Source: Actinomycetota bacterium
GTDB taxonomy: Bacteria; Actinomycetota; Humimicrobiia; Humimicrobiales; Humimicrobiaceae
NCBI GenBank assembly: GCA_028718045.1
Contig: JAQUMQ010000001.1
Span: forward strand, 1-25,904
Length of the DNA: 25,904 bases
Direction of reading: 5' to 3'
Program-made: the position numbers and the translations under genes
The notes under the pieces: model-generated
Database searches by the model: none
Seen by the model: only the letters and a program-made list of their open reading frames with translations
Told to the model about the DNA's origin: nothing
Shown here: positions 359 through 25,904 of the stretch, piece after piece
Numbering within the stretch: the stretch's first letter is position 1
How the letters are laid out: every line of letters begins with the position of its first letter

Positions 359-2320
<1,962 letters not shown>

Positions 2321-2325
2321 TTTAT

Positions 2326-2355
2326 AAATTCCGGCATAATCATTTCCGGATTTTT
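2326..2355 (+). terminator. Weak hairpin or possible terminator between gyrB and gyrA
   Basis: AAATTCCGG ... CCGGATTTT (8 of 9 pairs, 11-nt loop) ending in a T run. Confidence 0.3.
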
Positions 2356-2454
2356 AAGATATATGCACGATATATTTTTTACGATTTTTTACGAATGTAA
2401 ATTTTTTAAACAGTAAATAAATTTTATACAAAATTTTTAATTATAAGGAAATGA

Positions 2455-4887
2455 ATGGTTTTTGAAATAAGAGGAAAAATTAAAAATGTCGGCATAGAGT
2501 CCGAAATGCAGGACAGCTATTTAAGCTATGCCATGAGTGTTATTGTAGGTCGCGCACTTCCAGACGTAAGAGATGGGCTCAAACCTGTTCACCGAAGAAT
2601 CTTGTATGCTATGAATGATATGGGGATGAGGCACAATACTCCTTTCAAAAAAAGTGCCCGTATCGTTGGCGAGGTTTTGGGAAAGTATCATCCTCACGGA
2701 GATACCGCAGTTTATGATTCCATGGTTAGGATGGCTCAGGATTTTTCAATCAGATATCTTTTAGTTGATGGTCATGGAAATTTCGGTTCGATAGACGGTG
2801 ACAGTCCTGCAGCCATGAGGTATACGGAAGCAAGGCTTTCTGAGTTTGCCGAAGAATTGCTTACCGATATGGATAAGGAAACCGTTGATTTTATCGATAA
2901 CTTCGACAGCTCATTAAAGGAACCGGTAATTCTTCCCGCAAAAATTCCGAATCTGCTCGTAAACGGTTCTTCAGGTATTGCGGTTGGAATGGCAACGAAT
3001 GTCCCGCCGCATAACTTGGGAGAGGTAATCGATGGAGTCATAGCTTATATAGACAATAAAGATATATCGATATCGGACCTGCTTAAAAAAGTCAAGGGAC
3101 CGGATTTTCCTACTGGCGGCAAAATTATGGGTATGAAAGGTATAGTAAATGCTTATAATACGGGAAGGGGTATACTTACCGTCAGAGGCAGCGTTCACAT
3201 TGAACAAACCAAAAAGCAAAGACAGCAGATAATAATAAGCGAAATACCTTATCAAGTTAATAAAACGACACTCATAGAAAAAATAGTAGAAAATGTTAAG
3301 GAAAAAAGGATCGAAGGTATCAGTGACTTAAGAGACGAATCCGATAAAAGCGGAATGAGGATAGTCATAGAAGTCAAAAGAGAAGCCGACCCCAATATAG
3401 TAATTAATCAGCTTTATAAACATTCACAGCTTGAATCAACTTTTGGGGTAATCATGCTTGCCTTGGTTAATGGTATTCCAAGGACCTTGAATTTGAAAGA
3501 AATGATTTGTGAATTCGTAAAGCATAGATATGATGTCGTCGTAAAAAGGACAAAATATGAGTTGAGGAAAGCCGAAGAAAGAGCTCACATACTGGAAGGC
3601 TTGCTTATCGCTCTTGATAATCTTGATGCCGTAATAAAACTCATTAGGTCTTCAAAAGATGTTCCTACCGCGAAAGAAGGTCTTGTGTCCAAGTTCAATC
3701 TGACTGAAATCCAGGCACAAGCGATACTCGAAATGAGGCTGCAAAGGCTTACTGCTCTGGAACGCGACAAGATAAAACTTGAGCACAAAGAGCTTACGGA
3801 GAAGATAAAGTATCTTAAGGAACTACTTGAAAACGATGATTTGCTTTACGGTGTTATAAAAGATGAACTAAAGGAAATAAAGAAGAAATATGCGGACGAG
3901 AGAAGATCAGAAATAACGGCTGAAGTATCTGATCTTGAAATAGAAGATCTTATTGCAGAGGAAGAAAACGTAATTTCTATCACACATAGTGGTTATATAA
4001 AAAGGCTGCCTGTCACGACATACAGGAAACAAAACAGAGGAGGCCGCGGAGTAACGGGTATGAATCTTAAGGAAGAAGACTTCGTCGAGCATTTATTCAT
4101 ATCTTCAACCCATAATTATATAATGTTCTTCTCGAATTTTGGCAAGGTATACAGGCTTAAGGTATTTGAAATACCCGAAGGAAGCAAAGCTTCGAAGGGT
4201 AAGGCAATCGTGAATATACTGCCTTTTAAACAAAATGAAAAGGTAATGGCTGTAATTGCGGTTAAAGAATATGGCGAAGATGATTATTTGATAATGGCAA
4301 CAAAGAAAGGTTACGTCAAAAAGACTTCGATAAAAGAATATGATACTTCAAGAAAAGAAGGAATTGCGGCAATTACCTTAAAGGAAAAAGACGAGCTTAT
4401 CGAAGTTAAAAAAACAAGCGGAAAAGACGATGTTATGCTTATTACCAAAAATGGGCAATGCATTAGATTTAGCGAAACCGATTGCAGACATATGGGCAGG
4501 ACCGCTCAAGGCGTTATAGGAATGAGGCTCAAAAAGGGCGATGAAGTTTTGGCAATGGCTGTAGTCAGAGATATTAACAGTGACTTGTTTGTCCTAACCG
4601 ATAACGGATATGGCAAAAGAACTCCCGTTTCCGATTTTACGAGATTTCATAGAGGTGGCAAGGGTGTAAGAGCCATAATAATTACAGAGAAAAAAGGCAA
4701 GATATCCGGTGCGGGCATTTTAAGAGAGGATTATGATGTAATGATAATGTCGATAAACGGCATTCTCATACGGATCAATGCAAGCAACATATCAAAATAC
4801 GGAAGAGCAAGTCAGGGAGTGAAATTAATGAATCTTGAAGAAGGTGATAAAGTTGCTTCGGCTGCATTTGTGGCTCCGGAAGACTAG
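2455..4887 (+). CDS. gyrA: DNA gyrase subunit A
   Basis: Motifs [19 protein letters not shown] and catalytic AAMRYTE. The GyrA-box QNRGGRG distinguishes it from ParC. C-terminal beta-pinwheel repeats present. Confidence 0.98.
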
Positions 4888-5146
4888 GGCTATGTGGTTT
4901 TCGGCTGCATTTTGATTTTAATATAAAACAAACTTTAATGGTATTTAGCAATATTTTTAATTCTTTTTTATTTTATTGTTTTAATTGTTGGATATAAATA
5001 ATATAATATTTTTAATAAAAAACCGTGTAAGAGATATTTAAGGAAAAATACAGGTTTATTTCTCATCTTTTTATTATAATTTTATTGGTTTTGAAAATAA
5101 GAATTATTTAACAAGTTTATTAATTGGCGACAGGAGGAACAGGGAA

Positions 5147-5536
5147 ATGGCAGAACAAAAACAAACAGTGGTAGATGCGGAATTTAACGCAAAAAGTTCT
5201 ACAGGAATGGAACCAAAAATAGCGTGTCTTTTAGCTTATTTATTTGGCTGGCTTGGCGGACTTATCATTTTTTTGATTGAAAAGGAAAACAAGTTTGTAA
5301 AGTTCCATGCACTTCAAGCCTTGATACTTGGTATAATAGAAATAATATGCTTTATCGGCATTTCTGTATTGTTGGGAATGATTCCTTATGTCGGATGGTT
5401 CTTATTTTCATGGCTAGGTTGGGTTCTTGGTGCAGTGTGCTACATATTTGCGATTATAGCAATTATTAAGAGCTTCAATGGTGAAAGATACTACATTCCA
5501 TTTCTGAGAAGTTTGGTTAATAAATACAATAAATAA
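5147..5536 (+). CDS. DUF4870-family small membrane protein
   Basis: Pattern ACLLAYLFGWLGGLIIFLIEKENKFVKFHALQA, three hydrophobic segments, C-terminal YYIPF; AGGAGG SD upstream. Confidence 0.75.
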   Translation: MAEQKQTVVDAEFNAKSSTGMEPKIACLLAYLFGWLGGLIIFLIEKENKFVKFHALQALILGIIEIICFIGISVLLGMIPYVGWFLFSWLGWVLGAVCYIFAIIAIIKSFNGERYYIPFLRSLVNKYNK

Positions 5537-5548
5537 TCGATTTTTCAC

Positions 5549-5609
5549 AATAAACTTACTGAAGCATATTTTTTTATTTAAGTTTAGCTCTTCGGTAAGT
5601 TTATTTTTT
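5549..5609 (+). terminator. Hairpin or likely terminator after the DUF4870 gene
   Basis: AATAAACTTACTGAAG (5549-5564) pairs with CTTCGGTAAGTTTATT (5590-5605): 16 bp with one G-U, followed by a T run. Confidence 0.55.
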
Positions 5610-5664
5610 ATTATAAAAATTACCTTAAATTTTAAATCAAAAAATAATTTAAGGAGGGTGATGC

Positions 5665-6114
5665 ATGGATAAAACAGTAGTTCAAAGAAGAATAATAAAG
5701 AGCATAAGCGAGTGGTCTGTCTTTAAAATTGCCATTGTGGCTTACTTGATCGTTTTTATACTTTCTGTAATAATTTTTGGGATTATTGCTGTTATTACAT
5801 GGGCGGGATTTAAAGCTTCCGGAATCAATTTAAATAATCTGTTTGCCAATACGAATTTTGGATCCATGCTTTCGGGATTTGGAATAAAGTTGCCTAATTT
5901 GAATATTGTTTTTGGGACGGGCGGTATTGTAGGGATAGTATTATTTATAGTATTCGGACTGCTTTTTTCGGTGGTTTATGCTGCGATAGCTGTTTTTTGG
6001 ACATGGATATTTAATGTGATTATAAAAATAAGCGGTGGTCTTGAAATAAGATATACTGAAAGAATAACCAAGGTCGAAAATAAAATCCTCGAAAATACCC
6101 CGACAAATAATTAA
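5665..6114 (+). CDS. DUF3566-like membrane protein
   Basis: N-terminal ISEWSVFKI and C-terminal IFNVIIKISGGLEI resemble DUF3566. It sits between gyrA and tRNA-Ile, as in Actinomycetota; AAGGAGG SD upstream. Confidence 0.65.
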   Translation: MDKTVVQRRIIKSISEWSVFKIAIVAYLIVFILSVIIFGIIAVITWAGFKASGINLNNLFANTNFGSMLSGFGIKLPNLNIVFGTGGIVGIVLFIVFGLLFSVVYAAIAVFWTWIFNVIIKISGGLEIRYTERITKVENKILENTPTNN

Positions 6115-6251
6115 TTAAGCATAAATATAGTATCTGATTATTGCCCTTAAAATTCACAAATATATTTTGCTGCCAGTGTTGTATTGTCTGACGGTGTAGC
6201 ATTTATGCTTCAAGCATTCTTTTATAAGGTGATTCCTAAGGTAATTAGTCA

Positions 6252-6280
6252 TTGACAAAAGTGCAGCAAATTGATATTTT
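6252..6280 (+). promoter_or_regulatory. Putative sigma70 promoter for the tRNA pair
   Basis: TTGACA (6252-6257), 17-nt spacer, TATTTT (6275-6280) with TG at 6272-6273. Confidence 0.6.
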
Positions 6281-6303
6281 ATCGCTTGCATGTTTTTTCT
6301 TTA

Positions 6304-6380
6304 GGGCGTATAGCTCAGTTGGTTAGAGCGCGTCCCTGATAAGGACGAGGTCTCTGGTTCGAGTCCAGATACGCCCACCA
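6304..6380 (+). tRNA. tRNA-Ile (GAT)
   Basis: 77-nt cloverleaf: acceptor GGGCGTA/TACGCCC, anticodon stem CGTCC/GGACG with loop CTGATAA, T-arm GGTTCGAGTCC, encoded CCA. Confidence 0.98.
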
Positions 6381-6451
6381 ATTGACATTTGATTTTTTTT
6401 TATTTTTTATATATCCTTATCATTTGTCATAGATGGCGTAACCTGATATGT

Positions 6452-6527
6452 GGGGGTGTAGCTCAGCTGGGAGAGCACCTGCCTTGCAAGCAGGGGGTCA
6501 GCGGTTCGATCCCGCTCATCTCCACCA
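6452..6527 (+). tRNA. tRNA-Ala (TGC)
   Basis: 76-nt cloverleaf: acceptor GGGGGTG/CATCTCC with the G3:U70 alanine identity pair, anticodon stem CCTGC/GCAGG with loop CTTGCAA, encoded CCA. Confidence 0.98.
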
Positions 6528-7985: not shown

Positions 7986-9044
7986 ATGATATCAAAAAAA
8001 ATAACGACAGGTGAGACGATGCCAAAAGAAGTGGCACAAAAAGAAATGACGCCAAAAGAAATAATATTAAATATCCTCAACAAGAAAAAAGTTCCCAGAT
8101 GCGGTGTGGCAAATCCCGTATCTTCGATAACCGTCGAGCAGATGAAAATAATGAATTCCTTTTTTCCCGAAGCTCATTATGATGCCGGGAAAATGTATGA
8201 ACTTTCAAGAGCCAATTATGAAATACTTGGCTTTGATGCGATAATGCCTGTTTTCAGCGTCGTAATCGAATCTCATGCTCTCGGCTGCACAATAGATTGG
8301 GGCAGGCCCGATATGATGCCTCAAATTTTAGGAAAGCTATGGAAGAATTATGATGATATCAAAATCAATAAAGATTTTTTATCAAACAATGCCGCTAAAG
8401 CTGTCCTTGAATGCATATCTTTGCTTAAAAACAATTATCCGGATGTTGCCATAATAGGAAAGGTTTTTGGACCATGGACACTTGGTTATGATCTTTTCGG
8501 CGTAGAGGATTTTCTTATAAAAACCATAACAAATCCAAATGAAGTGAAAAGCATTTTAAATAAGCTTAGCAAGGTAACTGTCAGGTTTGCCAATGCTCAA
8601 ATCGAAGCAGGAGCAGATGTAATTACCGTTGCCGACCATGCAACAAAAGATCTATGCAGCCCTCTTGCATATAGGGATTTTTTGATTCCCATCCATTCAA
8701 TGCTGGTTAAAAAAATAAAAGCTCCGATCATTCTTCATATATGTGGCGATATCGTAGACCGGATAGAATATATATGCCAGACAAATGTTTCTTCATTTCA
8801 TTTTGAATCAAAAGTCGATGCATGCCAGGCGGTTAAGATAAGCAACGGCAGGATCAAACTTATAGGCAATATCAATAACTCGTCGACTCTTCTTTTTAAA
8901 ACCCCCAAAGATGTTAAAAAAGAAGTGGAATATGCAATAAAATGCGGAGTTGACATTATTGGTCCCGAATGCGCGGTACCTTTAACCACACCTCTGGAAA
9001 ATTTAAAAGAAATCACATATGTCACAAAAAATCATAAACATTGA
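7986..9044 (+). CDS. MtaA/CmuA-family methyltransferase (uroporphyrinogen decarboxylase superfamily, MT2 type)
   Basis: Motifs GKVFGPWTL, AQIEAGAD, ILHICG (His/Cys at 8736/8742), GNIN and IIGPECAVP (Cys at 8970). GGAG SD 8 nt upstream; alternative starts at 8019 and 8046. Confidence 0.85.
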   Translation: MISKKITTGETMPKEVAQKEMTPKEIILNILNKKKVPRCGVANPVSSITVEQMKIMNSFFPEAHYDAGKMYELSRANYEILGFDAIMPVFSVVIESHALGCTIDWGRPDMMPQILGKLWKNYDDIKINKDFLSNNAAKAVLECISLLKNNYPDVAIIGKVFGPWTLGYDLFGVEDFLIKTITNPNEVKSILNKLSKVTVRFANAQIEAGADVITVADHATKDLCSPLAYRDFLIPIHSMLVKKIKAPIILHICGDIVDRIEYICQTNVSSFHFESKVDACQAVKISNGRIKLIGNINNSSTLLFKTPKDVKKEVEYAIKCGVDIIGPECAVPLTTPLENLKEITYVTKNHKH

Positions 9045-9255
9045 CCCGTAAAGCGCATTTTTAAGTTCTGTCGCAAGATATATTCCCCATTTTAAGCCAT
9101 GGTCGGTATTTTATCTCATATGTAGCTATTTTATTATACTATTAATCAGTAAATAGTATTACTTTTTAAAAATCATAGATTTTATAAGTTTGATATTATA
9201 TAATCAAACAAAATTTTATGTGAATTATTGGAGAATTTACTTATTAAAATAGTCA

Positions 9256-10119
9256 GTGGAAAAATTAGTTTTTTTTAATACAAAAGGCGGAACCGGCAAA
9301 ACAACTTTTTGCTTTAACTATGGTTGTTATCTCGCAACTGTAAAAAAGAAAAAAGTTCTAATGATGGATTTTGATCCTCAGGCAAATCTGGCTTTTTCTT
9401 TTGGAAAAGTTCCGGCAAAGGGAACATCGTGCTGCCTCGATAACCTTATTTTAAACTACCTTAAGGGAGAAAAGAAAAATTTTGATGATTACCTGGTTTC
9501 TATTAAAGACGGCCTCTTTTTGCTGCCGTGTTCAAACAATATCTCCCTTATAGAGGAATACCTTACAAATCATATAATAAACAAAGAACAGACCAAAACG
9601 GATAGCGGCGAAACAATTAAAAATCCTGCCATAGAGAGAAATAATATTTTATTAAACATTTTAGCCGAATCAATCAAATCCGATGATTTCGACTACATTT
9701 TAATTGACAGCCAACCAAATTTTTCGCTACTTTCGACAACGGGTATTGTTTTTACCGGAAATATCATAGTGGTTATGAAAGCCGAACCTTACTCAATGAT
9801 TGATATTGAATATCTAAAAAAGATAATAAATAATCTTAACAAGAAATTTTCGGCGGATATAAAGATCACGGGAGTTATTATAAATGCTTATGAAGGAAGA
9901 AAAAAAGTTGCAGTTTCGACGGTAAAAGAAATAGAGGATAAATATAGCAATAAAATAAAGATATTTAATCAAAAAATCAAATATCTTTCTCAATACCAAA
10001 ATTCCATTGCTTTAAATAAAGAGGCTGTTTTTGATGTATATCCTAAATCGGAAGCTTCTAAAAACATATTAAGTCTTTTTAGCGAGATCGACAGTGAGAT
10101 AATTTTTAGCAGCCAGTGA
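9256..10119 (+). CDS. ParA/Soj-family ATPase (orphan, no N-terminal HTH)
   Basis: Deviant Walker A KGGTGKTT, DFDPQAN, Walker B YILIDSQP. GTG start; TATAAT at 9199-9204 upstream. Confidence 0.9.
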   Translation: MEKLVFFNTKGGTGKTTFCFNYGCYLATVKKKKVLMMDFDPQANLAFSFGKVPAKGTSCCLDNLILNYLKGEKKNFDDYLVSIKDGLFLLPCSNNISLIEEYLTNHIINKEQTKTDSGETIKNPAIERNNILLNILAESIKSDDFDYILIDSQPNFSLLSTTGIVFTGNIIVVMKAEPYSMIDIEYLKKIINNLNKKFSADIKITGVIINAYEGRKKVAVSTVKEIEDKYSNKIKIFNQKIKYLSQYQNSIALNKEAVFDVYPKSEASKNILSLFSEIDSEIIFSSQ

Positions 10120-10171
10120 TTTTTAATCGTTTGTTGTTTTTATATTATTAGTTTGTTTTTAAGGAGATGTC

Positions 10172-10567
10172 ATGACAAATTCCGATTTTTATTCTAACGG
10201 TGATTTGAAAGATAAACCGGCAGATCAGAAAAATGGCGCACAGAAAACTTTGCTTACTATCAAAGGCAGCAGCGCAAAGGTTGAAGGTAAGTTAAAAATT
10301 TCGAATTCGGTTGAAGTAGACTGCGAAGTCGTGGGTGAGCTTGATGTCGGCGGCGAATTGGTAATCCAAAGATCAGGCAACGTTACTGCCAATATCAAAA
10401 CGAATAATGTTGTCATAAAAGGTGAATATAAAGGAAATATGGAAGCTGCCGGCAATGTCCAAATTATGGAAACAGGCAAAACCAGCGGTAATATAAAAAC
10501 GGATTCGCTCATAATCGAAAAAGGCGGTATATTCTCAGGAAATGTAGAAAGAATAACGGAAAACTGA
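10172..10567 (+). CDS. Bactofilin (polymer-forming cytoskeletal protein)
   Basis: Beta-helix periodicity (VEGKLKIS..VEVDCEVVGEL..LVIQRSGNVTANI..VVIKGEYKGNM..GNIKTDSLIIEKGGIFSGNV); AAGGAG SD upstream. Confidence 0.9.
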   Translation: MTNSDFYSNGDLKDKPADQKNGAQKTLLTIKGSSAKVEGKLKISNSVEVDCEVVGELDVGGELVIQRSGNVTANIKTNNVVIKGEYKGNMEAAGNVQIMETGKTSGNIKTDSLIIEKGGIFSGNVERITEN

Positions 10568-12859: not shown

Positions 12860-13017
12860 ATATGGAATTTTTAATTATGATATTAAAATAATTACCGGTG
12901 AGTAAACAATAGTTTTATGATAAAATTTGATTTTGTATTCATTTTGTTATCAACTTTTTGATTTTTTATTCTGGTTTAAATTATTACATTATTCTTTATT
13001 TTCGAGAGGAGATCATA

Positions 13018-14406
13018 ATGTATGAAGTCTTAATGCCCAAGATGGGTGAAACGATGGAGAAAGGTACCATTGAAAAATGGAGGAAAAAAGAAGGAGACAA
13101 GATTGAAAAAGGAGATATACTATACGATCTTGCAACAGACAAGGTATCTCTTGAAGTAGAATCATTTAACTCGGGCTATTTGAGAAAGATATTAAGAAAT
13201 GAGGGGGAAGAAGTTCCGATAATGGAAGTGATTGCCTATATCGGCGAAAAAGATGAGCCCATACCTTTAGAAAATCAGGCTTCAAAATCAAAACCTGCGG
13301 AAGACCAACTTAAGGCAAAAGAAAAACCGGAACGTGAAAATAAGGATAAGGTTCAAGCCCAACCTTTTAAAGCTGAATCAGAAAGGATATCCATTTCTCC
13401 TGTGGCAAAAAATCTTGCCGAAGCTAACAAGATCGATATTTCAAAAGTTAAAGGAACAGGTCCGGAAGATAGAATAATCAGAAAAGACATAGAAGCTTTG
13501 ATCTTATCCAAAAAAGAAAAAAGTGAAAGGATTTTCATATCTCCTTTGGCAAGAAAGACAGCGACTGATCTTGGGATAGACTACAAAACGGAAAACATAA
13601 CCGGTTCGGGTCCCTCGGGAAGAATAGTGCATTCCGATATTTTGTCATTTTCAAAAGCCTCCGAAGCATTAAAAGAACAGAAAGCGCCTATCGTTGCGGA
13701 GGGTAAAGAAATTAAGATTTTATCTTCGGCACCGCTTAAAGGCGCACGAAAGGTTATCGCCAATAAAATGATTCAGTCAAAAAAAGAAATACCTCATATT
13801 ATCTGTAATTGTGTTTGCGATGTCAGCAGTCTCATATCGTTAAGAACCAGATTAAAAGATAAGCTTGAAAAAAATTATGGAATAAAAATTACTTATACCG
13901 ATTTTATAATTAAAATTACTTCGGTTGCATTGCACGAATTCAGATCGATAAATTCATCATTTCAAAATGACAATCATATTATTTATGAAGACATCAACAT
14001 AGGTATGGCTACCGCAGTAAATAATAGCCTCATTGTTCCTACGATTTATAATGCAGATACACTTGGTATTCTTGAAATTGCAAAAAAAAGAACCGAGCTT
14101 GTCCAAAAGGGGAGAGACGGAAAACTATCCCTTGATGAGGTAACGAACGCAACATTTACAATTTCCAACTTGGGAATGTATGGTGTAAGATCATTTACCG
14201 CAATAATCAATCCTCCTCAAGGCGCAATTATGATGGTTTCCGAAATGTATGAATCTCCTGTTGCCGTTGACGGGAAAGTCGAGATAAGAACGCTCATGGA
14301 AATAGGAGTTGCGGTAGATCATAGGATTATTGACGGAGCGCTTGCGGCGCAATTCCTGCGTAGAGTCAAGGAACTTGTGGAAAATCCCGAGATGTTGATA
14401 TTATAG
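13018..14406 (+). CDS. Dihydrolipoamide acyltransferase (E2) of a 2-oxoacid or acetoin dehydrogenase complex
   Basis: Lipoyl domain (TDKV, Lys at 13141), two peripheral subunit-binding domains, catalytic TFTISNLG, NPPQ and DHRIIDG. ATG 13018 follows GAGAGGAG (track start 12958). Confidence 0.95.
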   Translation: MYEVLMPKMGETMEKGTIEKWRKKEGDKIEKGDILYDLATDKVSLEVESFNSGYLRKILRNEGEEVPIMEVIAYIGEKDEPIPLENQASKSKPAEDQLKAKEKPERENKDKVQAQPFKAESERISISPVAKNLAEANKIDISKVKGTGPEDRIIRKDIEALILSKKEKSERIFISPLARKTATDLGIDYKTENITGSGPSGRIVHSDILSFSKASEALKEQKAPIVAEGKEIKILSSAPLKGARKVIANKMIQSKKEIPHIICNCVCDVSSLISLRTRLKDKLEKNYGIKITYTDFIIKITSVALHEFRSINSSFQNDNHIIYEDINIGMATAVNNSLIVPTIYNADTLGILEIAKKRTELVQKGRDGKLSLDEVTNATFTISNLGMYGVRSFTAIINPPQGAIMMVSEMYESPVAVDGKVEIRTLMEIGVAVDHRIIDGALAAQFLRRVKELVENPEMLIL

Positions 14407-14506
14407 CTTTTGCCAATTGTTTTTTTATTATTTTTTTGAATGGGAAATTTTTAAAAAATGAGGTTTTTATTTATACAATAATATTTGTTTTAATTAACGC
14501 TGCCTT

Positions 14507-14515
14507 TGGTATAAT
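14507..14515 (+). promoter_or_regulatory. Extended -10 promoter element upstream of the zinc-ribbon gene
   Basis: TGGTATAAT, an exact TGnTATAAT match. Confidence 0.4.
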
Positions 14516-14631
14516 TGCTTTTGAAACGATATTGATTTAATATCTTTTGTTTAATGTTTTTTATTTTGACATATAAAAACAGTAAATATGATTTCTATAT
14601 ATTATAACTGATAATATTTTTTTTATGTAAA

Positions 14632-14961
14632 ATGCTAAAAGATGAAGAAACAAAAATTGTTCTTTTTTGCATAAATTGCAATTCGGACACGGAGCATACC
14701 GTTAGTTATATAGGCGAATATTTAAAAAGTATACAGTGCAACAAATGCTTAAAAAAAATTGAAATAGACAGAAGGCATTTAAGAACAGTTTTTGCTGAAG
14801 ATTTTATAGATAGAATTCTTTCGAAACCTCATAGAATGTCCCGTGATTTTAAAGAAGCTATGGCTTATCTTGTTCCGTTTTTTCCAAAAAGGCTATTTAA
14901 GGAACCTAAAAAGGTAATAAAGGAAATAATTGAAGTGTTGAGGAAAAAAAACGGGGAATAA
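14632..14961 (+). CDS. Small zinc-ribbon hypothetical protein
   Basis: CINC...CNKC (two CxxC) followed by a helical tail (RILSKPHRM). It resembles, from memory only, small uncharacterised Firmicutes proteins annotated 'bh protein'. Confidence 0.7.
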   Translation: MLKDEETKIVLFCINCNSDTEHTVSYIGEYLKSIQCNKCLKKIEIDRRHLRTVFAEDFIDRILSKPHRMSRDFKEAMAYLVPFFPKRLFKEPKKVIKEIIEVLRKKNGE

Positions 14962-15123
14962 ATCGACAATTATATATCAAGATTCTGGTTTGATAGTTTG
15001 TTCGATTATTTTTTTATTATTGTCAGCGTAAAGTTTTAATTATTTTTTTTTGCTCTTTTTGGATATTTTTATTTGGATGAGCACTTTTAATATTTTATTT
15101 TTTGTCTTTGGAGGGTAAATCTC

Positions 15124-16518
15124 ATGGCGGAAGTAAAAAAAGCAGATGTAGCGATTCTTGGTGCAGGACCTGGTGGTTATGTTGCGGCAATTAGGGCTAA
15201 AAAGCTCGGATTAGACGTGATTCTGGTCGAAAAAGAGAACTTGGGCGGGGTCTGCCTTAACTGGGGGTGCATACCGACAAAAGCACTTGCACATACAGTT
15301 GAAGTAATCGAGACGGTAAAAAAATCGCAAGAGCTTGGCATCAATATTTCGGCAGCGGAAACGGACTTTGGAAAAGTAATGGAACGGAAAGATAAGATTG
15401 TAAATATTCAAAGAGCAGGGCTTGAATATAATTTTAAAAAGAATGGGATTGAAATAGTCAGAGGGACAGGCAAGCTGGCTTCCAAAGATAAGATTATCGT
15501 AAAAGGAAATGCCGGAACGGAAGTCGAAATAAATGCCGAAAATATCATTCTGTCGACAGGCTCTCATGCATCAAGTGTTCCCCCTTTCATTCTTGACAAT
15601 GAAGGAATTTTAGATAACGTAGGTATTTTATCGCTTAAAGAACTTCCGAAATCCATGCTTGTAGTTGGCGGAGGTGTAATAGGTTGTGAATTTTCAAGCA
15701 TATTTTCTGCCTTGGGTACAAAAATTACAATTGTTGAAATCATGCCGAGAATTTTGCTGAATGAAGATGAAGAAGTTTCCGAACTTATAAAAAAAGTTTT
15801 TGTAAAAAAAGGTATAAATATCTATACAAATGTTACGGTAAAAGAAGTCAAGAAAGTAAATAATCAATATATGTGCCTGTTAAGTAACGGAGAATCGGCA
15901 ACGTTTGATAAGATTCTTGTTTCGGTCGGAAGAAAACCCAACACGAAAGACATCGGTTTGGAAGATATAGGAGTTAAGCTTGACGGCAAAGGCTTTATCG
16001 CTGTGGATAAATATCTAAAGACAAGTATCGATAATATATTTGCAATAGGTGATGCGGTAGGCGGTTATCAGCTTGCTCACGTTGCTTCATCGGAAGGGCT
16101 TGTTGCGGTTGATAATATTAAAGGAAAAAATAAAGAAATGAATTATGGTGTAGTACCATGGGCTATTTTTACGATTCCGGAAGTAGGAACTGTAGGTCTT
16201 AACAAAAAACAAGCAGAAGAAAAGGGTTATGATGTATGTACGGGAATATTTCCGTTTAAAAACAGCGGCAAAGCTTATGTCGTGCAGGAAACCGAAGGAT
16301 TTGTCAAAATATTCACCGATTCTTCTACAAAAGAAATTCTTGGTTCGACGATAGTTGGCCCCAGAGCATCCGATCTTATACATGAAATAGCGGTAGCAAT
16401 GCATGGTGAGCTTACGGCTGATTATGTTGCAAATGCAATTCATGCTCATCCAACCCTTTCGGAAGCAGTGATGGAAGCAGCCGAGGATTGCTTTGGACTT
16501 GCAACGCACAAGGTTTAA
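15124..16518 (+). CDS. lpdA: Dihydrolipoamide dehydrogenase (E3)
   Basis: FAD motif GAGPGGY, redox disulfide GGVCLNWGCIP, NAD motif GGGVIGCE, C-terminal HAHPTLSE; GGAGG SD upstream. Confidence 0.95.
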   Translation: MAEVKKADVAILGAGPGGYVAAIRAKKLGLDVILVEKENLGGVCLNWGCIPTKALAHTVEVIETVKKSQELGINISAAETDFGKVMERKDKIVNIQRAGLEYNFKKNGIEIVRGTGKLASKDKIIVKGNAGTEVEINAENIILSTGSHASSVPPFILDNEGILDNVGILSLKELPKSMLVVGGGVIGCEFSSIFSALGTKITIVEIMPRILLNEDEEVSELIKKVFVKKGINIYTNVTVKEVKKVNNQYMCLLSNGESATFDKILVSVGRKPNTKDIGLEDIGVKLDGKGFIAVDKYLKTSIDNIFAIGDAVGGYQLAHVASSEGLVAVDNIKGKNKEMNYGVVPWAIFTIPEVGTVGLNKKQAEEKGYDVCTGIFPFKNSGKAYVVQETEGFVKIFTDSSTKEILGSTIVGPRASDLIHEIAVAMHGELTADYVANAIHAHPTLSEAVMEAAEDCFGLATHKV

Positions 16519-24493: not shown

Positions 24494-25904
24494 ATGGAGA
24501 AATTTTTTAAAAGTAATTTTAGGTTCAATATATTGAAAAGTGATGAAATCAAAGAAATTTTTAATGCGAGCATGGATATATTAGAAAAAACAGGAGTAAA
24601 AGTATTTAGTACAGAAGCAGTAGAAATATTTAAAAAGAATGGTTGTATTATAAAAGATGACAATATAGTGCATATTCCAAATTCATTGGTAAAAAGTACT
24701 TTAAATAGTATACCTGAAAGAATAACTATATATAATAGAATTAGCGAACCGGCAATGATTATGGAAGATGGGATAATTCATTATGGAACTGGTTCAGATT
24801 GCCCAAATTTTATAGATCCTTATACTCAAGAAAGAAGACCCTCCACTAGTCAAGATGTCATAAATTCTGCGATAGTATCCGATCATCTTAATGAGATAGA
24901 TTTTCATATGTCTTTAAGCAGAGCAAGCGAAAAATCACCCGAGAATCATTTAATTCATCAATATGCGTTAATGTTAAAAAATACTATAAAACCATTAATT
25001 GTAACTGCAAAAAATAAAAATAATTTGGAGAAAATCTATAGTATTGCAGCATTGATAAGCGGGAGTAAAGAAGATTTTAAATTAAAACCAAATTTTATTT
25101 TGTATCTTGAACCAAGTTCTCCTCTTATGCATTCTAAGGATGTTTTAGAAAAATTAATTTTTTCTGTTGAAAATGATATTCCATTGATCTATGCTCCATG
25201 TCCTATGGCTGGTGCAACATCTCCAGTAACAAAAGCTGGTACTCTGGTCATTGCTCTTTGTGATTCACTTTCTGGAATAGTTTTGACTCAATTAATCAAA
25301 CCTGGCGCTCAGGTGTTTATGGGAGGAGTTATTTCAAATTTGGATATGTCAACATTAATAATGCCTGGTGCTTCACCTGAATTTTTATCTATGTCAGTAG
25401 CGCTGACTGAGATATCCAGAAATTTAAAAATTCCCATGTTTTCTACAGCAGGATGTACAGATGCAAAAACAGTAGACGAACAAGCAGCGATAGAAGTAAC
25501 TGATTCAATAATATTTGCGGGTCTTTCTGGTGCAAATATTATACATGACCTGGGATTTTTGCAATCATCCTTAACTGGTTGCCTTGAACTAGTAGTAATG
25601 TCCAACGAGATAATTAGAAAAATGAAAAAAGTATTCGAGGGGATAAAAGTAAATGAGGCAACTCTTATGAGGGATGTAATTAATAAAGTAGGTCCTGGTG
25701 GTAATTATCTACTTGAAGATTCAACCGTAAGATTATTTAAAAAAGAATTCTTTTTCCCAAAATTATTCAATAGAGATAATTATGAAAATTGGTTAAAAAA
25801 AGGAAGCAAACCTTTAAAAGATAGACTTAATGAAGAAGTATTGTTTATTTTAGAAAATCACAAAACAGAGAAGATTGAAAGTATAGTCAATAATAAAATT
25901 AATA
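24494..25904 (+). CDS. MttB-superfamily (trimethylamine methyltransferase family) corrinoid methyltransferase, non-pyrrolysine; partial, runs off right edge, not in ORF track
   Basis: SD AGGAG, then ATG 24494 and 470 codons with no stop. Motifs ILEKTGV, YGTGSD, EPSSPL, MAGATSPVT.AGTL, QLIKPG, DM..GASPE, AGCTDAK..DEQA.IE, GANIIHDLG and VGPGG. Confidence 0.9.
   Translation, partial: MEKFFKSNFRFNILKSDEIKEIFNASMDILEKTGVKVFSTEAVEIFKKNGCIIKDDNIVHIPNSLVKSTLNSIPERITIYNRISEPAMIMEDGIIHYGTGSDCPNFIDPYTQERRPSTSQDVINSAIVSDHLNEIDFHMSLSRASEKSPENHLIHQYALMLKNTIKPLIVTAKNKNNLEKIYSIAALISGSKEDFKLKPNFILYLEPSSPLMHSKDVLEKLIFSVENDIPLIYAPCPMAGATSPVTKAGTLVIALCDSLSGIVLTQLIKPGAQVFMGGVISNLDMSTLIMPGASPEFLSMSVALTEISRNLKIPMFSTAGCTDAKTVDEQAAIEVTDSIIFAGLSGANIIHDLGFLQSSLTGCLELVVMSNEIIRKMKKVFEGIKVNEATLMRDVINKVGPGGNYLLEDSTVRLFKKEFFFPKLFNRDNYENWLKKGSKPLKDRLNEEVLFILENHKTEKIESIVNNKIN

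What the first reader, a model, noticed from the sequence alone, without database searches (positions are those of the whole stretch)
9256..10567. Orphan ParA-like ATPase plus bactofilin two-gene unit: candidate positioning or cytoskeletal system
Seen: the ParA-family gene is followed after 52 bp by a bactofilin with its own SD and no obvious terminator between them. No parB, parS, chemotaxis or microcompartment genes are in the window. Known: orphan ParA/MinD ATPases position cargo (McdA, ParC, PpfA, PomZ), and Myxococcus BacNOP filaments recruit ParA via PadC, but those genes are not a simple parA-bactofilin pair. Inference: a dedicated module in which the ATPase positions, or is scaffolded by, bactofilin polymers. 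I do not know of this being described in an actinobacterium-like host.
Basis: partly seen in the sequence, partly recalled or inferred. Interest (0 to 1): 0.7.

Follow-up and report, generated by a model that had tools for sequence, protein, structure and literature searches.

The report
ParB-less ParA ATPase paired with bactofilin
An uncultured low-GC actinobacterium (Candidatus Humimicrobiaceae) carries a ParA-type positioning ATPase that is always followed by a bactofilin cytoskeleton gene; the two are inherited, diverge, decay and disappear together, which points to an undescribed ATPase-controlled bactofilin system, though no physical interaction has been shown.

Summary
Window 9256-10119 encodes an intact ParA-type ATPase. 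After 52 bp, with a strong SD and no terminator, 10172-10567 encodes a complete bactofilin.

The host is a Candidatus Humimicrobiaceae MAG, so "actinobacterium-like" is right despite 34% GC.

- **Isolated clade:** the ParA scores 449 bits to its own profile; the next protein among 1.84 billion representatives scores 145.
- **Adjacency:** in 35 species genomes and 3 metagenome contigs it is always followed, on the same strand, by an orthologous bactofilin, while the flanking genes differ.
- **Co-evolution:** the two trees are congruent.
- **Co-occurrence:** among 80 family genomes, 41 have both genes, 34 neither, 4 the bactofilin only and 1 (a cut contig) the ParA only. Nine genera contain both states.
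- **Co-decay:** one genome has both genes broken.

The genome has a separate canonical gidB-parA-parB set and no second ParB, so there is no PadC-type adaptor.

The window's pair is a derived paralogous copy. Its bactofilin lost the family's acidic tail with a C-terminal LxL peptide. A long-tailed copy persists elsewhere, next to the relic of a deleted ParA.

Best reading (inferred): a nucleoid-bound ParA positions or regulates the bactofilin polymer, much as PomXYZ or McdAB work. The complex prediction gave no answer. The scan's first readers noted the same family in three other genomes.

The parts
9176..9204 (+). Promoter-like element upstream of the ParA gene: TAGATT (9176-9181), 17-nt spacer, TATAAT (9199-9204), about 52 nt before the start codon.
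   Evidence: The TATAAT hexamer and the upstream box are conserved in the alignment of the three genomes of this clade, G000, G005 and G001. The -35-like box matches the consensus in only 3 of 6 positions, so the consensus scan did not list it. Function is inferred, not shown.
9256..10119 (+). ParA-type ATPase ('ParA-S', 287 aa, P0001). It has a GTG start, no SD, a deviant Walker A K10-GGTG-K15-T, D38/D40, Walker B D151, the family-specific SNNIS motif at 93-97, and R214 at the position of the Arg in Soj's 'MYDGRT'.
   Evidence: Pfam AAA_31 98 bits. No NCBIfam model reaches its cut-off. The invariant residues come from the 28-sequence alignment A1. AlphaFold2 model: pLDDT 83.8, pTM 0.86. The nearest solved folds are T. 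thermophilus Soj, ParA 8ray and HpSoj, then McdA; MinD and FlhG rank lower. R214 alignment.
10120..10171 (+). 52-bp intergenic spacer with a strong Shine-Dalgarno (AAGGAG, 10161-10166) for the bactofilin. No terminator.
   Evidence: Sequence read directly. No terminator-like site. Fold z-score -0.2. The same asymmetry holds across the family: no SD before any of 18 ParA genes, a strong SD before nearly all partner bactofilins.
10172..10567 (+). Bactofilin ('BacS', 131 aa, P0002). It has a disordered-looking N-terminal tail (residues 1-25, MTNSDFYS..., Lys13/15/20/25) and a bactofilin beta-helix domain at residues 32-125 (nt 10265-10546). It lacks the acidic C-terminal tail and the terminal LxL peptide of its orthologs.
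   Evidence: Pfam PF04519 79 bits, profile positions 4-97 of 98. All invariant core residues are kept in alignment A2. The tail-less state is shared only with G001 and G005.

Best explanation
This is a dedicated ParA-bactofilin module in which the bactofilin takes the place that ParB, McdB, MinE or PomX hold in other ParA/MinD systems. Shown: the two genes form an evolutionary unit. They are always adjacent, they co-diverge, and they are lost and decay together. The ATPase has every catalytic residue of an ATP-dependent dimerising ParA and a Soj-like fold. Inferred: the ParA dimer binds the nucleoid non-specifically, through the conserved Arg at the Soj DNA-binding position and no membrane helix. 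It then interacts with the nucleotide-independent bactofilin polymer. The polymer, through a terminal peptide, stimulates ATP hydrolysis. The resulting ParA gradient places, spaces or splits the bactofilin scaffold in the cell, in the way the PomX/Y cluster or carboxysomes are moved. The scaffold would in turn mark a site for division or wall growth in an organism where no MinD-type hit reaches its family cut-off. The ATPase is made in small amounts (no SD; GTG start here, and GTG or TTG in 4 of the 17 other ParA genes checked) and the polymer in large amounts (strong SD, ATG). In this particular genome the pair is a derived paralogous copy. Its bactofilin has lost the acidic tail and C-terminal LxL peptide. 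The ancestral ParA next to the long-tailed bactofilin BacL has been deleted. So the window's ParA is the only bactofilin-linked ParA left, and it probably serves a mixed BacS/BacL polymer, possibly with the membrane-type BacX.
For: Adjacency: the ParA ortholog is followed on the same strand by the orthologous bactofilin in 15 of 15 loci, 3 of 3 metagenome contigs and 30 of 30 loci of the class-wide census. Meanwhile the flanks differ: URO-D here, RtcB in L032, HcyBio in L034 and L036.

Co-divergence: the ParA tree and the bactofilin tree have the same major clades.

Co-occurrence in 80 family genomes: 41 both, 34 neither, 4 bactofilin only, 1 ParA only (cut contig). Both states occur in 9 genera.

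Co-decay: in G007 the ParA is frameshifted and the bactofilin has an in-frame TGA at an invariant Gly.

Not the chromosome ParA: gidB-parA-parB lies on contig C149, and only one ParB_N is found in the genome.

Active-site and fold: K10, K15, D38, D40 and D151 are invariant. The fold is nearest Soj/ParA, then McdA. R214 aligns with the Arg of Soj 'MYDGRT', which from memory of Hester and Lutkenhaus 2007 is the non-specific DNA-binding Arg R189 of B. subtilis Soj. The last helix is part of the fold rather than a separate amphipathic tail.

Translation asymmetry.

Precedent: architecturally diverse partners, including the filament-former PomX, activate their ParA/MinD ATPase through a short charged terminal extension grafted onto a polymer or interaction domain (PMC7993993).
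Against: No physical interaction is shown by any result here. Because the genes are adjacent, one deletion removes both, so joint loss is weaker evidence than it looks. Related genomes are also not independent samples. Four genomes keep the bactofilin without the ParA (G003, G004, G013, G079; 79-97% complete), so the polymer does not strictly need the ATPase. The N-terminal tails of the partner bactofilins are not clearly richer in positive charge than those of ParA-less paralogues, so an N-terminal activating peptide is not evident. The best candidate ParA-linked feature, the C-terminal LxL peptide, is missing from the window's own bactofilin and is retained in three ParA-less genomes. DNA binding rests on one aligned arginine. 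Co-transcription is not demonstrated.
Confidence: 0.5

Rival explanations
1. The bactofilin is an anchor rather than cargo. The polymer, membrane-attached through its N-terminal hydrophobic doublet or through co-polymerising BacX, sequesters or parks the ParA at a defined place. This would be the role BacNOP-PadC, PopZ, TipN or DivIVA play for chromosomal ParA, but here binding would be direct, with no adaptor. The ParA's real cargo would be something else, such as the chromosome, the Tad pilus machinery or an unknown complex.
For: There is precedent for ParA decorating bactofilin filaments in Myxococcus (PMC5703909). Most partner bactofilins start with MVFS[GS][KR] or MAFQSK, which resembles the hydrophobic doublet plus positive residue that targets bactofilins to membranes (10.1101/617639). 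A membrane-type BacX (MFSKK) is usually encoded convergently nearby.
Against: No second conserved partner or cargo gene accompanies the pair, and the flanks vary freely. The genome already has a canonical ParAB and another Soj-like orphan. In known ParA/MinD systems the neighbouring gene encodes the activator or adaptor, not merely an anchor. The asymmetry that the ParA is essentially never seen without the bactofilin fits both readings.
Confidence: 0.2
2. The ParA is an assembly regulator rather than a positioner. The ATP-bound dimer would cap, sever, bundle or inhibit bactofilin polymerisation, or its membrane attachment, at particular places. This is the way MipZ and MinCD act on FtsZ. It would give a nucleotide switch to a polymer that has none.
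For: Bactofilins polymerise without nucleotide, and no dedicated regulator of assembly is known. The expression asymmetry, little ATPase and much polymer, fits a catalytic regulator. The bactofilin can exist without the ParA (4 genomes), as expected for an accessory regulator.
Against: No evidence for any effect on polymerisation. The conserved Soj-type Arg and Soj-like fold suggest a nucleoid-bound gradient former. That is compatible with a MipZ-like inhibitor but not needed for simple capping.
Confidence: 0.15
3. There is no direct functional link. The pair would be a conserved but fortuitous operon, or the remnant of a mobile or plasmid partition cassette in which the ParA once served a lost centromere-binding protein.
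For: The nearest outgroup ParA (P0247) sits beside a ParB_N gene on what looks like a mobile element. The distribution within the family is patchy. Within the window's genus the pair has moved or duplicated to a new site.
Against: Adjacency holds in 38 of 38 loci across ParA divergence down to 47% identity, with changing flanks. The trees are congruent. Both genes are broken in G007. No iterons or centromere-like repeats lie around the pair, and no parS. The window is chromosomal and origin-proximal, beginning with gyrB-gyrA. All catalytic residues are kept.
Confidence: 0.05

Closest known systems
PomXYZ division-site positioning system of Myxococcus xanthus (PMC7993993)
   Same: In both, an orphan ParA/MinD-type ATPase with no ParB is encoded beside a protein that polymerises without any cofactor. 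In PomXYZ the DNA-bound ATPase dimer is recruited to the polymer cluster, which activates it and is thereby moved on the nucleoid. This is the closest analogue for how the module may work.
   Different: PomX is a coiled-coil protein, not a bactofilin. Two activators, PomX and PomY, are needed there. PomX has a clearly conserved, positively charged N-terminal peptide, which is not evident here. There is no specific sequence kinship between this ParA and any characterised subfamily: no NCBIfam model reaches its cut-off. Nothing here has been tested experimentally.
BacNOP-PadC-ParABS scaffold of Myxococcus xanthus (Lin et al. 2017, PMC5703909) and the parA3-parB-bactofilin operon of Bdellovibrio (PMC7186360)
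   Same: These are the only described functional or genomic links between a ParA ATPase and bactofilins. In Myxococcus, ParA decorates bactofilin filaments.
   Different: There the ParA is the canonical chromosome-segregation ParA working with ParB/parS. Binding to the bactofilins needs the ParB-like adaptor PadC. Here the ParA is a separate, family-specific paralogue, and the genome's single ParB lies with another ParA. No adaptor gene is conserved next to the pair, and no parS is nearby.
McdAB carboxysome positioning (PDB 6nop/6non; review PMC9178275)
   Same: Both are two-gene ParA-like plus unrelated small partner modules. McdA is among the nearest solved folds after Soj. The partner self-associates and stimulates the ATPase on the nucleoid.
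   Different: McdA lacks the signature lysine, which this ParA has (K10). The cargo there is a microcompartment, and no microcompartment genes were seen in the window. McdB is not a bactofilin.
Chromosomal Soj/ParA (T. thermophilus Soj 1wcv/2bek, ParA 8ray, H. pylori Soj 6iub)
   Same: Best sequence and structure matches: E 4e-15 to 5e-19, TM-score by target 0.83-0.87. Same deviant Walker A, catalytic Asp residues and aligned Arg.
   Different: Only about 20% identity. No ParB partner. ParA_partition scores 59 bits against a cut-off of 180. The genome has its own canonical ParA at 228 bits to AAA_31.
ParA-bactofilin modules noted by this scan in other phyla (e1-984677 in a gammaproteobacterium; e1-2085395, e1-2207978 and e1-2101526 in Nitrospinota)
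   Same: A divergent orphan ParA/MinD-like ATPase is constantly linked to a particular bactofilin, which suggests the pairing recurs in bacteria.
   Different: They occur in other phyla. The gene order differs or further partners are present (an L,D-transpeptidase in Nitrospinota). These are unchecked AI notes. I did not test homology with this family, and the profile search shows no close relative outside Humimicrobiaceae.

Membership tests
ParA/MinD (deviant Walker A, SIMIBI) ATPase superfamily | Deviant Walker A KGGxGK[ST] with the signature lysine | tested here: met
   K10-G-G-T-G-K15-T-T is invariant in 28 orthologs.
ParA/MinD (deviant Walker A, SIMIBI) ATPase superfamily | Walker A' (switch I) aspartates and Walker B aspartate | tested here: met
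   D38, D40 and D151 are invariant.
ParA/MinD (deviant Walker A, SIMIBI) ATPase superfamily | Family profile above the curated cut-off, and a ParA fold | tested here: met
   AAA_31 98 bits (cut-off 27) and CbiA 73 bits. AF2 model pTM 0.86; Foldseek probability 1.00 to Soj, ParA and McdA.
Chromosomal ParABS system (Soj/ParA with ParB/Spo0J and parS) | Adjacent ParB (ParB_N + HTH) partner | tested here: not met
   The downstream gene is a bactofilin. The only ParB_N in the genome is on contig C149, beside another ParA. The assembly is 88% complete.
Chromosomal ParABS system (Soj/ParA with ParB/Spo0J and parS) | parS centromere nearby | tested here: not met
   No match to TGTTNCACGTGAAACA at up to 3 mismatches anywhere in the window.
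Chromosomal ParABS system (Soj/ParA with ParB/Spo0J and parS) | Curated equivalog score | tested here: not met
   ParA_partition NF041546 scores 59.5 bits against a cut-off of 180. All other NCBIfam models are far below their cut-offs.
MinD / FlhG branch | C-terminal amphipathic membrane-targeting helix separate from the fold | tested here: not met
   The last helix (266-285) is the packed C-terminal helix of the ParA fold, and nothing follows it. minD_bact TIGR01968 scores 32.5 bits against a cut-off of 212.9. MinD and FlhG structures rank below Soj and McdA.
MinD / FlhG branch | MinC/MinE or flagellar partner genes adjacent | tested here: not met
   The neighbours are a URO-D-family gene upstream and a small membrane protein and PTS EIIC downstream.
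Bactofilin (PF04519) | Complete bactofilin beta-helix domain above the cut-off | tested here: met
   79 bits (cut-off 27.9), profile positions 4-97 of 98, residues 32-125. All invariant core residues are kept.
Bactofilin (PF04519) | N-terminal membrane-targeting motif (hydrophobic doublet followed by a positive residue at the very N-terminus; 10.1101/617639) | tested here: inconclusive
   P0002 starts MTNSDFYSNGDLKDK: the aromatic doublet is at residues 6-7 and the first Lys at 13. Orthologs in other clades start MVFS[GS][KR], and the genome's BacX starts MFSRK, which is canonical.
BacNOP-PadC-ParA scaffold (Myxococcus) | ParB-like adaptor PadC linking ParA to the bactofilins | tested here: not met
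   No ParB_N-domain gene lies in the locus or in any related locus examined. There is a single ParB_N in the genome.
BacNOP-PadC-ParA scaffold (Myxococcus) | The ParA involved is the chromosome-segregation ParA | tested here: not met
   A separate canonical gidB-parA-parB set exists. P0001 is about 25% identical to the other ParA-type matches found in related genomes.
ParA/MinD positioning systems with a non-ParB activator (PomXYZ, McdAB, ParFG) | Partner encoded next to the ATPase and co-inherited with it | tested here: met
   38 of 38 loci, congruent trees, and a co-occurrence table of 41/1/4/34.
ParA/MinD positioning systems with a non-ParB activator (PomXYZ, McdAB, ParFG) | [quoted passage not shown] | not testable with these tools
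   The N-terminal tail has Lys13, 15, 20 and 25, and a conserved [KR] precedes TLLT. ParA-less paralogues have similar tails. An ATPase assay is needed.
ParA/MinD positioning systems with a non-ParB activator (PomXYZ, McdAB, ParFG) | ATP-dependent non-specific DNA (nucleoid) binding of the ATPase | tested here: inconclusive
   R214, kept as R or K throughout alignment A1, aligns with the Arg of Soj 'MYDGRT' in PDB 1wcv and 8ray. Its role in DNA binding is recalled from the literature, not tested here.
BacA-LmdC type bactofilin/cell-wall-enzyme modules | M23 peptidase or other wall enzyme encoded with the bactofilin | tested here: not met
   No such gene is next to the pair in the window or in L032, L034 or L036.

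The most novel reading that the evidence does not exclude
Bactofilins can be true ParB-equivalents. On this reading the polymer is both the cargo and the ATPase-activating partner of its own dedicated ParA. The result would be a self-positioning, nucleoid-surfing cytoskeletal scaffold that marks the division or growth site in a deep-branching actinobacterial lineage where no MinD-type hit reaches its family cut-off. The conserved acidic tail ending in [DE][DE]x[LM]x[LI]-COOH would be a new kind of ParA-interaction or regulatory peptide. In the window's genus this function would have been split between a tail-less bactofilin next to the ParA and an unlinked tailed one. Together with the unrelated ParA-bactofilin pairs the scan noted in other phyla, this would make nucleotide-driven positioning of nucleotide-independent polymers a recurrent bacterial principle.
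Probability: 0.3. Interest if true: 0.8.

Novelty: new variant of a known kind. Interest (0 to 1): 0.62.

Why it matters
Bactofilins are widespread cytoskeletal polymers that assemble without nucleotide. How cells decide where, and how many, such scaffolds form is largely unknown. The only described link to a ParA runs through the chromosome-segregation machinery and a ParB-like adaptor.

A ParA that is dedicated to a bactofilin, with no ParB and no adaptor, would add a new class of partner to ParA/MinD positioning systems. It would also give bactofilins an energy-driven control.

The comparative signal is unusually clean, so the module is a well-defined target for simple heterologous experiments even though the hosts are uncultured. 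It may also bear on how deep-branching Actinomycetota, which carry MreB and DivIVA but where no MinD-type hit reaches its family cut-off, organise division or growth.

The natural variation found here gives ready-made genetic contrasts:
- tailed versus tail-less partners;
- genomes with the bactofilin only;
- deleted and decayed ParA copies.

Tried and rejected
**Complex prediction.** I sent a typical pair from one contig: ParA P0018 in two copies with ATP and Mg, plus long-tailed bactofilin P0198, both with alignments. The score was 0.00 and the verdict 'no answer', which is neither support nor evidence against. The window's own pair was not sent, because only one job was allowed.

**Public RNA data.** Two true RNA libraries each hold one short contig: 10257-10526 in the bactofilin and 9874-10042 in the ParA. 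The only contig reaching across the spacer comes from a library that is probably DNA. So neither expression nor co-transcription is shown.

**Hairpin or terminator search between and after the genes.** Nothing beyond chance.

**Centromere-like repeats, iterons or an operator around the pair.** Only short chance-level repeats. An 8-bp inverted repeat I saw at about 9139-9162 is not conserved in G005 or G001, so I dropped it.

**Nearest outgroup ParAs.** None is next to a bactofilin, so the pairing could not be traced beyond this family.

**N-terminal positively charged activating peptide specific to ParA-linked bactofilins.** Not distinguishable from ParA-less paralogues.

**C-terminal LxL peptide as a strict ParA marker.** Rejected as strict: it is kept in ParA-less G003, G004 and G079, and it is absent from the window's copy.

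**Flagellar link (B. subtilis BacEF precedent; Humimicrobiia are often flagellated).** Not pursued. No flagellar genes lie near any locus examined.

**PF27030 ('AbpE_bact').** The family could not be searched because it is not in the local Pfam copy.
Full report
**1. What is in the window**

ORF 9256-10119 (+, 287 aa, GTG start) matches Pfam AAA_31 (98 bits) and CbiA (73 bits). ORF 10172-10567 (+, 131 aa) matches Pfam Bactofilin (79 bits) over almost the whole profile. The genes are 52 bp apart. AAGGAG lies 5 nt before the bactofilin ATG. No terminator-like site lies between or behind them, and the RNA folds of both regions are no better than shuffled sequence.

The rest of the window, in order:
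- gyrB, gyrA, DUF4870, DUF3566, tRNA-Ile and tRNA-Ala;
- a DUF4380-like gene and a URO-D-family gene;
- the ParA-bactofilin pair;
- a small membrane protein and a PTS EIIC;
- E2 and E3 of a 2-oxoacid dehydrogenase, a HAD hydrolase and a GntR regulator;
- an Opp-type ABC transporter and an MttB-family methyltransferase.

I saw no ParB, chemotaxis or microcompartment gene among these, and no parS-like site.

**2. Host**

The window is about 34% GC, which does not look actinobacterial. However, the names that sources attach to the orthologs are 'Candidatus Humimicrobiaceae', 'Candidatus Hydromicrobium' and 'Actinomycetota bacterium', in the class Candidatus Humimicrobiia. The gyrB-gyrA-DUF3566-tRNA-Ile-tRNA-Ala order is the classical actinobacterial origin-side synteny.

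The genome is a MAG: 1.89 Mb, 341 contigs, 88% complete. Near-identical DNA occurs in landfill, soil, sludge and digester metagenomes.

**3. The ATPase**

The deviant Walker A with its signature lysine (K10-GGTG-K15-T), D38/D40 and the Walker B D151 are invariant in 28 orthologs. So is a family-specific SNNIS motif at 93-97.

No NCBIfam model comes near its cut-off. The best is ParA_partition, at 59 bits against 180.

An AlphaFold2 model built on the ortholog alignment is confident (pLDDT 83.8, pTM 0.86). Its nearest solved structures are T. thermophilus Soj, ParA 8ray and H. pylori Soj, with TM-score by target 0.81-0.87. McdA and the delta protein follow. MinD, FlhG and FleN rank lower.

The C-terminal helix belongs to the fold, and no MinD-like amphipathic tail follows it.

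R214, in the conserved 'E-[KG]-R-K-K', aligns with the Arg of Soj 'MYDGRT'. From memory (Hester and Lutkenhaus 2007), this is the residue needed for non-specific DNA binding in B. subtilis Soj (R189). This is a lead, not a test.

**4. An isolated clade**

A profile of the family was run against 1.84 billion representative proteins. It scores 449 bits on the family's own representative, and the next full-length protein scores 145 bits. In the 5.8-billion-sequence collection, 246 proteins match at E ≤ 1e-20; the 120 best are 49-99% identical and about 280 aa long, and every taxon name that sources give them, bar one Clostridia label, is from this lineage.

Three of the nearest outgroups were looked up. 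One is followed by a ParB_N gene. None has a bactofilin neighbour.

**5. The genome's other ParA-type genes**

- Contig C149 carries gidB, a canonical ParA (228 bits to AAA_31) and a full ParB (ParB_N, HTH_ParB, ParB_C).
- Contig C6 carries a second Soj-like orphan next to a DegV gene.
- Others are a MinD/CpaE-like protein next to a TadA/VirB11-like secretion ATPase, and an Mrp/ApbC protein.
- Nothing reaches the MinD cut-off.
- Only one ParB_N domain is found in the assembly, so no PadC-like adaptor is detectable.
- MreB and DivIVA are present.

**6. Conservation of the pair**

In the first sample of relatives, all 15 genomes with the ParA ortholog (47-73% identity) had an orthologous bactofilin (51-67% identity) immediately downstream on the same strand. 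The gaps were 29-177 bp. Three long metagenome contigs show the same arrangement with quite different flanks:
- RtcB upstream in L032;
- HcyBio upstream in L034 and L036;
- URO-D upstream in the window.

A census of all 87 species-level genomes held for the class found the ParA in 42. All of these lie in one family, with none in the 7 genomes of the two sister families. All 30 loci returned had the downstream bactofilin. In total that is 35 species genomes plus 3 contigs, with no exception.

**7. Co-divergence, co-occurrence and co-decay**

Maximum-likelihood trees of the ParA and of the bactofilins have the same major clades.

With a bactofilin profile, the best E-values in the family are bimodal: at most 1e-54, or at least 1e-36. 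This separates the ParA-linked type, which I call BacL, from a second type, BacX.

The cross-table for the 80 family genomes:

| | BacL present | BacL absent |
|---|---|---|
| ParA present | 41 | 1 (G095: 67% complete, ParA cut by a contig end) |
| ParA absent | 4 (G003, G004, G013, G079) | 34 |

Nine genera contain both 'both' and 'neither' species, so joint loss or gain happened repeatedly.

Two caveats apply. Adjacent genes are removed by one deletion, and kin are not independent samples.

In G007 (96% complete) the ParA has a frameshift near residue 125, and the bactofilin has an in-frame TGA at the invariant Gly of 'TLLTIxG'. Its congener G023 has no ParA and only a bactofilin fragment.

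**8. Features of the partner bactofilin**

Outside the window's small clade, the ParA-adjacent bactofilins are 140-191 aa long. They carry an acidic, low-complexity C-terminal tail that ends in a conserved peptide [DE][DE]x[LM]x[LI]-COOH, for example EDTLEL, DDSLKL, EENLSL or EDNMKL. Extra ParA-less paralogues in G006, G008, G014, G017 and G013 lack this peptide. ParA-less G003, G004 and G079 keep it.

Most of these bactofilins begin MVFS[GS][KR], MAFQSK or MSLGGNIFS. This resembles, without strictly matching, the 'hydrophobic doublet followed by a positive residue' shown to bind membranes in other bactofilins (10.1101/617639).

A second bactofilin, BacX, often lies convergently within 1.5 kb: 19 of the 30 loci. 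In the window's clade it starts with the canonical MFSKK.

**9. The window's copy is derived**

In both trees the window's genes group with those of G001 and G005 on long branches. Their bactofilins are 131-138 aa long and lack the tail and the terminal peptide.

G000 also has a long-tailed BacL, split by a contig break. Contig C307 ends with MSLGGNIFSS...NVQI. Contig C164 begins ...KKNEYES...DEKDEDTLEL. A small membrane protein, a PRK04334-type protein and the convergent BacX (P0242, MFSRK) follow it.

Upstream of this BacL lies HcyBio on the opposite strand. That is exactly where L034 and L036 have HcyBio, then ParA, then BacL. In G000, however, only 300 bp separate the two genes. Those 300 bp hold a decayed remnant of a ParA 3' end, 'SFILKHYKSSISINNNPVF' followed by stops. 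G003 shares this remnant, and G005 keeps only the last 19 codons of a ParA.

G002, in the same genus, still has ParA followed by long BacL. G001 appears to have both kinds of pair, but it shows 5% contamination.

So the window's pair is a paralogous or relocated copy. In G000 and G005 it is the only bactofilin-linked ParA left. G001 shares the window's exact flanks, and G005 does not.

**10. Expression signals**

A TATAAT box at 9199-9204, with a conserved box 17 nt upstream, is shared by the three genomes of the clade.

Across the family, none of 18 ParA genes has a recognisable SD, and five use GTG or TTG starts. Nearly all partner bactofilins have an AGGAGG-type SD and an ATG. This fits a scarce ATPase and an abundant polymer.

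Public RNA libraries hold only single short contigs in each gene, which shows nothing about co-transcription.

**11. Interpretation**

What is shown is an evolutionary unit made of an intact, Soj-like, ParB-less ParA and a bactofilin. What is inferred is the mechanism.

In every characterised ParA/MinD system, the neighbouring gene encodes the protein that both links the ATPase to its cargo and stimulates it. Such activators are architecturally diverse. They include the cofactor-independent filament former PomX (PMC7993993).

The most economical reading is therefore that the bactofilin is this partner. Nucleoid-bound ParA would position, space or split the bactofilin scaffold. I give this about 0.5.

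The alternatives:
- The bactofilin merely anchors or parks the ParA, a PadC-less version of the Myxococcus arrangement (0.2).
- The ParA regulates bactofilin assembly (0.15).
- There is no direct link (0.05).

The asymmetry in the cross-table, with the bactofilin present without ParA in four genomes but ParA without the bactofilin in none that can be trusted, says the ATPase is the accessory part. The single complex prediction gave no answer, and I do not count it either way.

**12. Novelty**

Full-text searches found ParA-bactofilin links only in two forms: the Myxococcus BacNOP-PadC-ParABS scaffold, and the Bdellovibrio parA3-parB-bactofilin operon. I found no description of a ParB-less, adaptor-less ParA dedicated to a bactofilin, and nothing on the cell biology of Humimicrobiia.

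Earlier notes of this scan record the same family in three other genomes, at first-reader stage only. They also record unrelated orphan ParA-bactofilin modules in a gammaproteobacterium and in Nitrospinota. These are unchecked leads, but they suggest the pairing may recur.

I class the finding as a new variant of a known kind: a ParA/MinD positioning system with a new class of partner.

Noticed in passing
window 377-6527: gyrB, gyrA, DUF4870, DUF3566, tRNA-Ile(GAT) and tRNA-Ala(TGC) form the classical actinobacterial origin-side synteny, here in a genome of only about 34% GC. This is a reminder that GC content misleads for this deep-branching class.
   Followed up: partly
window 24494-25903 (Rfam hit at 25454-25553): An MttB-family (trimethylamine methyltransferase) gene runs off the window end. 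It carries a PYLIS_3 'pyrrolysine insertion sequence' hit (42 bits, cut-off 38), yet the frame is open with no in-frame TAG in the part held. It may be a non-pyrrolysine MttB homologue, or the hit may be a conserved coding-sequence echo. The URO-D-family gene at 7986-9044 could belong to the same methyltransferase metabolism rather than to haem synthesis.
   Followed up: no
G000 contigs C307 (2492-2790) and C164 (1-171); loci L068, L067: The two contigs are neighbours. A long-tailed bactofilin (BacL) is split by the contig break: its N-terminus and core are at the end of C307, and its acidic tail ending in EDTLEL is at the start of C164.
   Followed up: yes
L068 (G000 C307) 2229-2285; L111 (G003) 2161-2280; L112 (G005 C164) 34-90: Decayed remnants of a ParA 3' end lie directly upstream of the long-tailed bactofilin. 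G000 and G003 share the same remnant, with stop codons. G005 keeps only the last 19 codons. These are footprints of deletion of the ancestral ParA.
   Followed up: yes
L055 (G007 C5), about 1500-2740: Both genes of the pair are broken in a 96%-complete genome. The ParA is frameshifted near residue 125, and the bactofilin has an in-frame TGA at an invariant glycine. Sequencing error cannot be excluded, but the breaks are in two genes and of two different kinds.
   Followed up: partly
L034 9624-10394; L036 9871-10638; L067 (G000 C164) 588-1355: A protein of about 255 aa sits between BacL and the convergent BacX in several genomes of one clade. It is of the PRK04334 'hypothetical protein' type (207 bits, below the 271 cut-off), and the source annotation labels it PF27030 AbpE_bact. 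In G000 a 72-aa predicted membrane protein precedes it. Whether these genes belong to the module is unknown.
   Followed up: partly
G008 contig C9 (L065 and nearby); G006 C119 (L064): There are local expansions of tail-less bactofilin paralogues without a ParA: four copies on G008 C9, two of them nearly identical, and two in tandem in G006.
   Followed up: no
window 12958-16518: E2 (lipoyl, E3-binding and catalytic domains) and E3 of a 2-oxoacid dehydrogenase complex are separated by a 109-aa ORF with no family match. No E1 genes are in the window.
   Followed up: no
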